Shown piece after piece: positions 2,773-4,540 of a DNA stretch of 64,000 bases. The DNA lies in NCBI GenBank assembly GCA_951406725.2, contig OX597817.1, positions 123,876,001 through 123,940,000 on the forward strand, in the 5' to 3' direction. Every line of letters starts with the position of its first letter. Within the stretch, counting starts at the first letter, position 1. The DNA is from Octopus vulgaris (Eukaryota). Under the pieces are notes generated by a model. That model had not been told where the DNA came from. It searched no databases and was given only the letters and a program-made list of their open reading frames with translations. The position numbers were made by a program, and so were the translations under genes.

Positions 2773-3105
2773 AAGTATAAAGAATTTTTCCTTGCAATCT
2801 TGGGTATCTCAGATTCTCACTGCATGGCACCATTTTAAGATATTCCTAAGTCTATCTAAGCCTTCTGGATGAAACTGGGTAAACAGAATAAATGGGAAAG
2901 GTAACCAGATGGATCATATATTTCTTTTACCATCAAATTATTTCAGTCATCAGACTGCAGCCATGCTGAAGCATCACCTTGAAGACTTTTAGTCAAATAA
3001 ATTTACTTCAGCTCTATATTTAAGAGATAAGGAATTATGTACATTATTTACTTTATTTACATTATTTACATTTGACAGATATTTGTCCTCGTCTTGTTTG
3101 TTGTT

Positions 3106-3151
3106 AACACAATGTTTCGGCTGATATACCCTCCAGCCTTCATCAGGTGTC
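3106..3151 (-). ncRNA. minimal type I hammerhead ribozyme motif
   Basis: GACAC-CTGATGA-A-GGCTG(GAGGGTATAT)CAGCC-GAAA-CATT-GTGTT: stem I GACAC/GTGTT, stem II GGCTG/CAGCC, canonical core, vestigial stem III. Confidence 0.7.
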
Positions 3152-3198
3152 TTCGGGAAATTTCAAACTTGGGTTCTCATTCCTAAGGTATTTTTCAA

Positions 3199-3287
<89 letters not shown>

Positions 3288-3467
3288 TCACTGCCTGTAA
3301 TCAAACTCAGAATCTTGGGATTAGTAGCCTGCGCTCTTAACCACTATGCTATATGCCTGTGTGCGTAGTAGTTAAGAGCACGGGCTATTAACCCCAACAT
3401 TCTGAGTTCGATTCTAGGCAGTGACCTGAATAATAGTAGTAGTAGTAATAATAATAATAATAATAAT

Positions 3468-3528
<61 letters not shown>

Positions 3529-3575
3529 TCGAAAAATACCTTTGGAATGAGAACTCAGGTTCGAAATTTCCCCAA

Positions 3576-3621
3576 GACACCTGATGAAGGCTGGAGGGTA
3601 TATCAGCCGAAACTTTGTATT
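3576..3621 (+). ncRNA. minimal type I hammerhead ribozyme motif (decayed second copy)
   Basis: GACAC-CTGATGA-A-GGCTG...CAGCC-GAAA-CTTT-GTATT; same core and stem II, one stem I mismatch. Confidence 0.62.
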
Positions 3622-3744
3622 AACAACAAACAAGATGAGGACAAATATCTGTCTATTGTAAATAATGTAAATAATGTACTAAGCATTTTGTCAGTTTTGC
3701 TAATGGTTCTGCCAGTTTGCCACATTTTCTAGACCTAATACTAA

Positions 3745-4150
3745 TAATCCTTTCAACTAAAGGCAGAAAGCCTGAAATTTTGGGGAAGTGAACCAGTTGA
3801 TTATATTGACCCCACTGTTTCACTGGAACCCAAAAGGATGAAAGTCAAAGACGACTCTAGCAGAATTTGAACTCAGAATGTAAAGACAGACGAAATGCTG
3901 CTAAGCATTTTGCCTGGCCTGCTAAAAGTTCTGCTAGCTTACTGCTTTAATAATAATAATAATCCTTTCTACTAAAGGCACAAGGCCTGCAATTTTGTGG
4001 GTGGGAACTAGTTGATTACATCGAGCCCAGTGTTTGACTGGATCTTAATCTATTGACTCCAAAAGGATGAAAGGTAAAGTCAACCCCAGCTGAATTTGAA
4101 CTCAGAACATAAAGATGGACAAAATGCCATTAAACATTTTGCCTAGCATA
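3745..4150 (-). mobile_element. two tandem copies of SINE family A
   Basis: Two repeats of AGGATGAAAG.CAAAG.CGAC...GAATTTGAACTCAGAA...AAGCATTTTGCC, the reverse complement of the family A body. Confidence 0.8.
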
Positions 4151-4154
4151 TTCT

Positions 4155-4540
4155 ATTACTTGTTTCAGTCATTTGAATCTGGCTATGCTGGAGCACTGCC
4201 TTTAGTCGAGTAAATCTACTCCTGAATTTATTTTTTGTAAGCCTAGTACTTATTCTATCATTCTCTTTTGCTGAACGGCTAAGTTGCGGGGACGTAAACA
4301 CACCAGCATCGGTTGTCAAGCGATGTTAGGGGGACAAACGCAGACACACGAACATAAGCACACACACACACACACATATATACGATGGGCTTCTTTCAGT
4401 TTTCGTCTACCAAATCTTCTCACAAGGCTCTGGTCGGCCCAAGGCTACAGTAGAAGACACTTGCCTAAAGTGCCACACAGTGGAACTGAACCCGGAACCA
4501 TGTGGTTTGTAAGCAAGCTACTTACCACACAGCCACTCCT
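4155..4540 (-). mobile_element. tRNA-derived SINE family B (internal CA/TA microsatellite)
   Basis: Head GGAGTGGCTGTGTGGTAAGTAGCTTGC...GGGTTCAGTTCCAC, internal (TG)n, tail GTGCTCCAGCAT...ACTGAAACAAGTAA; near-identical to 53330-53742. Confidence 0.88.

What the first reader, a model, noticed from the sequence alone, without database searches (positions are those of the whole stretch)
3039..3679. 640-bp palindrome of a tRNA-headed SINE-like unit that ends in a hammerhead
Seen: two inverted ~315-bp units separated by 13 nt. Each reads outward as a tRNA-like head (A-box-like TAGTGGTTAAG, loop CTACTAA/CTATTAA, B-box GAGTTCGATTC), an (AAT)n or (AAT/AAC)n tract, a minimal hammerhead and an (AAATAATGT)n tail. 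The two copies imply an ancestral GAAACGTT with palindromic AACGTT. Established: Schistosoma Sm-alpha repeats combine a Pol III tRNA-like promoter with a hammerhead; minimal PLE hammerheads with palindromic stem III can cleave as dimers. Inference: a Pol III-driven SINE that borrows a Penelope-type 3' end rather than a LINE tail, inserted as an inverted dimer.
Basis: partly seen in the sequence, partly recalled or inferred. Interest (0 to 1): 0.75.

Follow-up and report, generated by a model that had tools for sequence, protein, structure and literature searches.

The report
Penelope end repeat with tRNA promoter
This palindrome is two back-to-back end repeats of a common protein-coding Penelope-type jumping gene, not a separate SINE; the unusual part is that the repeat opens with a tRNA-like promoter motif right where copies most often begin, so its RNA is likely made by RNA polymerase III, the enzyme that normally makes tRNAs.

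Summary
The palindrome is real but is not an independent SINE. Each arm is the pseudo-LTR (pLTR) of an autonomous Poseidon-type Penelope-like element (PLE): the head follows the stop codon of an 835-aa RT/GIY-YIG ORF, and the hammerhead and 'tail' are that ORF's first codons. Head-to-head pairs with one tailed arm (101 of 106) and target-site duplications (76 of 100) are standard PLE footprints. The unusual feature: the pLTR starts with a tRNA-derived A/B-box head. Of 71 copies reaching it, 56 end within -10..+10 of the tRNA +1, most often at -7/-6. The family's sense strand has no TTTT terminator in 2.6 kb (3.2 expected in the ORF, P about 0.02; 2 of 73 relatives also have none). Best reading: Pol III starts in the pLTR, and the PLE enzyme copies that RNA from two internal sites at both ends of a staggered cut, giving SINE-like solo pLTRs. 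Pol III use and cleavage are untested; RNA-seq was uninformative; both window hammerheads are mutated. This scan noted the same family before on other DNA (e1-8669850, e1-8663237). New variant of a known kind.

The parts
3009..3364 (-). Left arm: complete pLTR of the Penelope-like element, from the inferred RNA 5' end (-6) to the end of the tail
   Evidence: family comparison
3363..3679 (+). Right arm: inverted pLTR copy, 5'-truncated at head +10, without tail (3' end 3675-3679, uncertain because of the 9-nt repeats)
3359..3364 (-). 6-nt leader upstream of the tRNA-equivalent +1; part of a small hairpin at which many family copies begin or fold back; 3363-3364 is a 2-bp overlap joining the arms
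   Evidence: sequence; family 5' ends
3286..3358 (-). tRNA-derived head, left arm (A box 3341-3351 intact; B box 3298-3306 mutated)
   Evidence: family head 50/76 identical to a genomic tRNA-Arg(TCT), z 8.1; not called by ARAGORN or Rfam
3363..3426 (+). tRNA-derived head, right arm (+10 to +73; B box 3406-3414 intact; A box lacks its first two bases)
3200..3283 (-). (AAT)n tract between head and ORF start, left arm
3430..3527 (+). (AAT/AGT/AAC)n tract between head and ORF start, right arm
3009..3180 (-). First codons of the PLE ORF in the left arm (ATG 3180-3178; stop at codon 7 in this copy)
3547..3679 (+). First ~44 codons of the PLE ORF in the right arm (ATG 3547-3549)
3106..3151 (-). Minimal type I hammerhead, left arm; helix III palindrome mutated at 3113
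   Evidence: architecture as in PMC4209133
3576..3621 (+). Minimal type I hammerhead, right arm; helix III palindrome mutated at 3614, stem I at 3619; family cut site would be after 3616
3009..3039 (-). 31-nt PLE 'tail', present on the left arm only
2995..3007 (+). Possible degenerate target-site duplication with 3669-3680 (about 11 of 13 bases by eye); not established
   Evidence: one search found only a 6-nt exact match for this pair

Best explanation
The palindrome is a head-to-head pair of pseudo-LTRs of an autonomous Poseidon-type Penelope-like retrotransposon whose pLTR begins with a tRNA-derived head that likely acts as an RNA polymerase III promoter. SHOWN: the unit sits directly after the stop and again at the start of an 835-aa RT/GIY-YIG ORF; copies end at two fixed 3' sites about 30 nt apart; inverted pairs have one arm of each type and are usually flanked by 7-17-bp duplications; 5' ends pile up at the head start. 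INFERRED: Pol III starts about 6 nt upstream of the tRNA-equivalent +1 and meets no TTTT in the element. The PLE protein makes a staggered double-strand cut and primes cDNA at both DNA ends, one from each of two internal start sites in the ORF's first codons, as the anole Poseidon protein does in vitro. Each cDNA runs toward the RNA 5' end. The two cDNAs then join head to head by short overlaps, often after the cDNA end has folded back on the small GCCC-AC-GGGC hairpin. Priming in the 5' pLTR needs only about 350 nt of copying, so solo pLTRs outnumber ORF copies roughly 8:1 and look like a SINE. The hammerhead is the usual PLE motif; it is probably dead in this copy and probably not needed for insertion.
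For: pLTR identity: 27 of 30 ORF-selected loci run into the head. The tail runs into the ORF start in L130, L152 and the loci. The majority ORF is 835 aa, has RVT_1 hits and is 38% identical over 784 aa to an Anolis carolinensis 836-aa protein. Footprint: 120 head-to-head versus 2 tail-to-tail pairs in 215 loci; 101 of 106 classifiable pairs have exactly one tailed arm, p 1e-24. Duplications of 7 bp or more flank 76 of 100 pairs versus 19% shuffled. The same footprint is described for Pen2a (PMC3846280); two-strand cleavage and two internal RT starts are shown for PAc (PMC11167929). RNA start: 56 of 71 copies reaching +10 end in -10..+10, 5.6% per nt against 0.5 downstream and 0.4 upstream, p<1e-18. 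Agreement with the ORF-side sequence falls from 57-76% at -7..-1 to 19% at -8 in 42 copies. Three direct-orientation junctions land on the -6 G (L369, L372, L384). Pol III: consensus A box at +8 and B box at +53; head z 8.1 against tRNA-Arg. No T4+ in 2,636 nt, while T1-T3 runs are at expectation; synonymous shuffle P 0.0175. Single copies have 0.45 T4+/kb against a median of 4.0 in 73 relatives; a second PLE family in this genome has 5 in 2,367 nt.
Against: No direct evidence of Pol III transcription. RNA-seq reads of a related-label organism showed no pile-up of starts or ends and no strand bias. The strongest local hairpin of the region (-10.8 kcal/mol) spans -17..+13, so stalling or fold-back could add to the pile-up. 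The T4 deficit is modest: 2 of 73 relatives also have none, and L295 has 0 in 1,980 nt with no tRNA head; A-rich sense strands lower T runs anyway. The head's similarity score is partly driven by the A/B boxes themselves, only 6 tRNA amino-acid types were available for comparison, and Rfam gives no tRNA hit. The two arms of a pair share derived variants only weakly (0.37% versus 0.11% shuffled), so it is not shown that both come from one RNA molecule. Described PLE promoters look like Pol II (TATA/Inr, intron), and an uncapped Pol III RNA would be a poor mRNA (recalled). The window's own pair has no clean duplication.
Confidence: 0.6

Rival explanations
1. Ordinary Pol II-driven PLE. The tRNA-like head is a passenger captured once into the pLTR, and copies stop at it because the cDNA stalls or folds back on the local hairpin, or because a Pol II start happens to lie there.
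For: The hairpin at -17..+13 is the strongest in the scanned region. Fold-back extensions are common: A at -8 in 25 of 42 copies, plus 13 fully palindromic centres among 65. Palindromes at pLTR 5' ends and self-priming are described for other PLEs. No transcript starts were seen.
Against: A hairpin of similar strength in the anticodon arm (-9.1) loses only 0.8% of copies per nt. Ends peak on the far side of the hairpin (-7 and 0), and several copies start at the -6 G without fold-back. Both boxes are at consensus with tRNA spacing, and T runs vanish exactly at length 4.
Confidence: 0.25
2. One reading: an independent tRNA-derived SINE that took over a PLE 3' end and spreads from its own short master copies; ORF-linked heads are secondary.
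For: Hammerhead copies outnumber ORF-end copies 4,162 to 501 exact 30-mers; only 7 of 100 unbiased copies reach the ORF. Some short tandem units of pLTR plus 160-460 nt of ORF exist and two share one junction, so non-autonomous sources probably contribute.
Against: The head is fixed at one position in ORF-bearing copies (27 of 30), stands in front of the ORF start in others (L370, L377, L392), and is bridged to the ORF in contigs of two other organism labels (F and G). No separate SINE subfamily is visible: the only positions under 85% agreement in the 3' part are four CpG bases and one repeat position.
Confidence: 0.08
3. A long read-through transcript is cut at the tRNA-like head by RNase P, so the pile-up marks a processing site and not a transcription start.
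For: A second peak of 5' ends lies exactly at the tRNA +1 (9 copies at position 0).
Against: The main peak is upstream (13 copies at -7; direct junctions at -6), which RNase P would remove. The head does not fold as a cloverleaf well enough for Rfam or ARAGORN.
Confidence: 0.07

Closest known systems
Penelope/Poseidon PLEs: Poseidon_Ac of Anolis carolinensis (PMC11167929; parts 1-2 of 4 read) and Pen2a of Adineta vaga (PMC3846280; passages)
   Same: Single RT + C-terminal GIY-YIG ORF of about 835-842 aa; pLTR that includes the ORF's first codons; hammerhead overlapping the ORF start (PAc); 31-nt optional tail on one of two inverted pLTRs; 8-10-bp TSD (Pen2a); palindrome at the inverted junction.
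   Different: Here the pLTR opens with a tRNA-derived A/B-box head and an (AAT)n tract; the passages read describe TATA/Inr or intron-associated promoters. No A/B pair was found after the stop in 50 metagenome relatives.
[quoted passage not shown]
   Same: Short helix I, unpaired base before helix II, loopless palindromic helix III; dual motifs 100-700 bp apart on opposite strands are mentioned there.
   Different: Nothing in the ribozyme itself; activity untested here.
Sm-alpha / Sj-alpha SINE-like elements of schistosomes (seen through PMC6765202, PMC2770079, PMC8490949, passages; Ferbeyre 1998 not held)
   Same: tRNA-derived, apparently Pol III-transcribed repeat with a type I hammerhead.
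   Different: Those are non-coding, often tandem, and need the ribozyme to release monomers; no parent ORF is named in the passages read. Here the head belongs to a protein-coding element and copies are mostly single or inverted.
Animal non-LTR retrozymes (PMC7229834, passages; bioRxiv 10.64898/2026.07.22.740005, part 1 of 5 and passages)
   Same: Short hammerhead-bearing units related to PLE pLTRs.
   Different: Retrozymes are tandem arrays with circular RNAs; neither text contains 'pol III' or 'polymerase III'. Direct upstream partners were seen in 1 of 100 unbiased copies.
Cassandra, Helenus and Ajax TRIMs (PMC10886601; start of abstract, figure legend and reference list)
   Same: Small-RNA-derived sequence placed inside a terminal repeat of a retroelement.
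   Different: Those are non-autonomous LTR elements; this is an autonomous PLE.

Membership tests
EN+ PLE, Penelope/Poseidon type | Single ORF with PLE-type RT and C-terminal GIY-YIG-like domain | tested here: met
   835-aa majority ORF; RVT_1; 38% identity over 784 aa to the Anolis protein, through the endonuclease region. Pfam gave no GIY-YIG hit on the fragments, and no tree was built.
EN+ PLE, Penelope/Poseidon type | pLTR present after the stop and overlapping the ORF start | tested here: met
EN+ PLE, Penelope/Poseidon type | Inverted 5' copy with a 30-40-nt tail on one end only | tested here: met
   101 of 106 pairs
EN+ PLE, Penelope/Poseidon type | Minimal type I hammerhead in the pLTR | tested here: met
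   Core and stems by sequence; Rfam does not score it
EN+ PLE, Penelope/Poseidon type | Ribozyme self-cleavage | not testable with these tools
   No pile-up of 5' ends at the cut site: 4 of 106
tRNA-derived SINE | tRNA-related head with internal A and B boxes | tested here: met
   cloverleaf not recognised
tRNA-derived SINE | Non-autonomous family distinct from its partner retrotransposon | tested here: not met
   The whole unit is part of the autonomous element
tRNA-derived SINE | Copies begin at the Pol III start | tested here: met
   56 of 71; junctions at -6
tRNA-derived SINE | Transcription by RNA polymerase III | tested here: inconclusive
   Boxes and absence of T4 are indirect; RNA reads uninformative
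tRNA-derived SINE | LINE-like 3' tail with simple repeat at the 3' end | tested here: not met
   3' ends are two fixed sites inside the PLE ORF start
Non-LTR retrozyme | Tandem array with a hammerhead in each non-coding unit | tested here: not met
   Inverted pair here; direct upstream partner in 1 of 100 unbiased copies. A few short tandem units exist among ORF-junction loci.
Non-LTR retrozyme | Circular RNA intermediate | not testable with these tools
   Two junctions join ORF +232 to the hammerhead cut site (L367, L389); too few to judge

The most novel reading that the evidence does not exclude
The whole 2.9-kb protein-coding retrotransposon is a Pol III transcription unit. It captured a tRNA-derived promoter into its end repeat, purged every TTTT terminator from an 835-codon ORF, and the same RNA yields both full-length copies and tens of thousands of SINE-like solo repeats. 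It would be an autonomous retrotransposon carrying its own SINE, and a living model of how a SINE is born from its partner.
Probability: 0.3. Interest if true: 0.82.

Novelty: new variant of a known kind. Interest (0 to 1): 0.55.

Why it matters
The palindrome is a routine Penelope footprint. If the head is a working Pol III promoter, however, this is an autonomous retrotransposon with a SINE-type promoter built into its terminal repeat, which I did not find described. It offers a direct route from PLE to SINE and a possible origin for tRNA-plus-hammerhead repeats such as Sm-alpha. It also raises the question of how an uncapped RNA is translated. Separately, the family gives unusually clean statistics (one tailed arm in 101 of 106 pairs, duplications in 76 of 100) for the open question of how PLEs make inverted ends, in line with twin priming from the two RT start sites shown in vitro for PAc.

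Tried and rejected
Rfam (window, 10 loci, one 341-nt stretch, 20 relatives) and ARAGORN on the window: no tRNA or hammerhead call. Pfam on the 64-aa C-terminal peptide and on three other ORF fragments: no relevant hit. Run search: no RNA holder listed. Three raw RNA runs of organism B (about 6% of each read) and one contig set laid at 85% likeness: depth follows genomic copy structure, both strands equal, no start or end pile-up; uninformative about Pol III or cleavage. 'First-look candidate' counts near 2,400 look capped and were not used as copy numbers. The idea that the two hammerheads dimerise within the palindrome was rejected because they lie on opposite strands. The idea that the tailed arm is always the ORF-bearing or the head-starting arm was rejected: tail status is independent of 5' class. 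Hammerhead cleavage as the source of 5' ends was not supported: 4 of 106. Pure snap-back copying of a whole arm was rejected as the general origin of pairs, because arms differ in their 3' ends. One motif search for the tail-ORF junction printed nothing and was replaced by reading the sequence. Repbase, Dfam and SINEBase could not be searched, so the family may already be catalogued. No paper supplements were read; those of PMC4209133 and PMC8557442 list PLE families and could bear on novelty.

Full report
OBSERVATION. The window holds two inverted units, 3009-3364 (minus) and 3363-3679 (plus), with 89% mean column identity; the region folds as one long hairpin, z -30.8. Each arm reads outward as tRNA-like head, (AAT/AAC)n, and a hammerhead core. 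No other copy of head or 3' part lies in the window. The 13-nt 'spacer' is the left arm's own 5' end; the right arm starts at head +10, and the two share a 2-bp GC overlap. ARAGORN and Rfam report nothing here.

FAMILY. The own genome has 2.8 Gb in 227 contigs. It is probably an octopus, going by earlier scan notes and my recall of the neighbouring repeats; I did not test this. A 39-nt hammerhead core with GAAACGTT has 1,218 exact matches; a 30-mer of the hammerhead has 4,162. Ten of 81 copies not selected on that stretch carry the exact 30-mer, which gives roughly 34,000 hammerhead copies (my arithmetic; range about 19,000-68,000). Head and hammerhead part travel together in 29 of 30 head-selected loci.

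THE UNIT IS A pLTR. Two loci had the same peptide-coding sequence just upstream of the head. Of 30 loci picked by that sequence, 27 continue into the head and 28 into the hammerhead part; upstream lie RT and GIY-YIG-like fragments. Walking upstream reached copies in which hammerhead part and extension run directly into the ORF start (L130, L152). A majority of the ORF-bearing copies, computed in a script with median coverage 4 at the N-terminus and 30-50 further on, gives one open frame of 835 aa starting at an ATG inside the unit. Two fragments hit RVT_1. The protein is 38% identical over 784 aa to an 836-aa Anolis carolinensis protein, which I take to be Poseidon_Ac or a close copy (inference from size and host). 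So the hammerhead, the 9-nt repeats and the extension are the ORF's first codons, as in PAc and Pen2a. The exact-30-mer count for the ORF end is 501, about one eighth of the hammerhead count. Contigs of organism labels F and G bridge ORF and head, and all four runs laid cover every bin.

INSERTION FOOTPRINT. In 215 loci (selected by hammerhead, head or ORF; tRNA loci, six long refetches and three duplicates left out) there were 333 copies of the 3' part, 120 head-to-head pairs and 2 tail-to-tail cases. 3' ends fall in two groups about 30 nt apart. Of 106 pairs with both ends classifiable (14 were not), 101 have exactly one tailed arm, 3 have two and 2 have none; 53 mixed pairs were expected. 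Of 100 such pairs with enough flank, 76 show an exact direct repeat of 7 bp or more at the outer ends, up to 17 bp with a peak at 12, against 19% in shuffles. The window's pair is not among them. These features are described: inverted pLTRs, an optional 31-bp tail and 8-10-bp TSDs in Adineta (PMC3846280, passages) and in the review of PLE structure (PMC8557442, passages). PAc cleaves and extends both strands and starts at two internal sites that define the tail (PMC11167929, parts 1-2 of 4). Twin priming from those two sites is my inference; arms share derived variants only modestly (0.37% versus 0.11%, 0 of 2,000 shuffles).

THE HEAD. The family head has a consensus A box at +8 and B box at +53. 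Its best match among ten genomic tRNA sequences is tRNA-Arg(TCT), 50 of 76 columns, z 8.1. The cloverleaf is decayed and Rfam gives no hit even on a 341-nt stretch. In 100 copies taken in order along one contig, only 7 reach the ORF. Pooling both arms in hammerhead-selected loci (205 copies; 96 reach the head, 56 end in the 3' part, 53 in or near the microsatellite), 56 of the 71 that reach +10 end within -10..+10. That is 5.6% per nt against 0.5% downstream and 0.4% upstream; palindromic centres were scored as -7. Among 65 heads with an intact +1 region, 10 continue into the ORF-side UTR, 13 have palindromic centres and 42 neither. In those 42, agreement with the UTR drops from 57-76% at -7..-1 to 19% at -8, where 25 have the base expected from fold-back of the cDNA end. 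In loci picked by the tail-ORF junction, three direct junctions land on the -6 G, two of them after an untemplated AA. 5' pLTRs in front of the ORF start at -8, -2 and +3 in three loci, and only one of 30 is a tandem with an upstream ORF. A start on a purine 13 nt before the A box fits Pol III (recalled).

TERMINATORS. The majority sense strand has no run of four T in 2,636 nt, while runs of one, two and three T match expectation; synonymous shuffles give 3.2 +/- 1.4, P 0.0175. Single decayed copies have 29 in 63,955 nt (0.45/kb). Of 80 metagenome relatives, 73 had enough aligned length; their median is 4.0/kb, observed/expected 1.5, and 2 have none. One of these (L295) has no tRNA head and many T runs in its UTR, so a T4-free ORF can arise without Pol III. 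A second, C-rich PLE family of this genome has 5 in 2,367 nt. None of 50 relatives with sequence after the stop had an A/B-box pair, though some flanks were short. This evidence is suggestive, not decisive.

AGAINST. RNA reads showed no discrete starts. The strongest local hairpin overlaps the pile-up, although a similar hairpin in the anticodon arm loses only 0.8% per nt. 5' ends do not gather at the hammerhead cut site (4 of 106), in line with PAc, where cleavage is not needed for insertion. In the window both hammerheads have lost the G of AACGTT and each head has one damaged box, so this copy is probably inert.

LITERATURE. Eight searches returned no paper describing a tRNA-derived or Pol III promoter in the pLTR of an autonomous PLE. 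Sm-alpha is described as a tRNA-Gln-related SINE-like repeat with a hammerhead, apparently Pol III-transcribed (passages of secondary papers; the 1998 original is not held). The octopus SINE paper of Ohshima and Okada was seen only as a title in a reference list. Repeat databases and supplements were not seen. Earlier scan notes reached the same reading for this family on other DNA; one of them prompted the whole-element Pol III test. Notes on PLE-borne SINEs in other genomes exist. They are leads, not support.

VERDICT. pLTR pair of an autonomous Poseidon-type PLE: about 0.97. Defined RNA 5' end at the head: about 0.8. Pol III as the polymerase: about 0.6. Pol III reading the entire ORF: about 0.3. 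New variant of a known kind; interest 0.55.

Noticed in passing
L367, L369, L372, L389 (about 1745-1760 in element orientation): Four of 26 ORF-start fragments end at the same ORF position (+232, after CCGTT); two rejoin at the hammerhead cut site and two at the head's -6 G. Other ends cluster near +158-165 and +246-264. These may be further RT start sites, RNA 3' ends or short non-autonomous tandem units.
   Followed up: partly
L112, L123, L220 (one repeat); L120, L126, L238 (second); L122, L198 (third): Three unrelated repeat families with (AAT)n ends are fused to the pLTR's 3' part through the microsatellite. This could be insertion into their tails or template switching, and could be how the tRNA head was first captured.
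   Followed up: partly
3' UTR of ORF-bearing copies, head -14..+10: The autonomous element's own UTR ends in an imperfect palindrome with the head's first ten bases, which looks like a fossil of a fold-back junction.
   Followed up: partly
L035:25-393 and L256-L284: A second, C-rich PLE family with many long copies and a long overlapping upstream open frame.
   Followed up: partly
L023:2263 and L229:1825: A different hammerhead family with a short helix II and the same AACGTT palindrome.
   Followed up: no
L162: Cluster of seven tRNA-Cys-like genes in 3 kb, two with altered anticodons.
   Followed up: no
window 2934-3008, 3678-3943, 4003-4470: The insertion sits among decayed copies of other SINE-like repeats; left and right flanks belong to different repeats.
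   Followed up: no
L295:4920-5260: A Poseidon relative whose ORF lacks T4 runs while its UTR is a long T/C-rich tract ahead of a hammerhead.
   Followed up: partly
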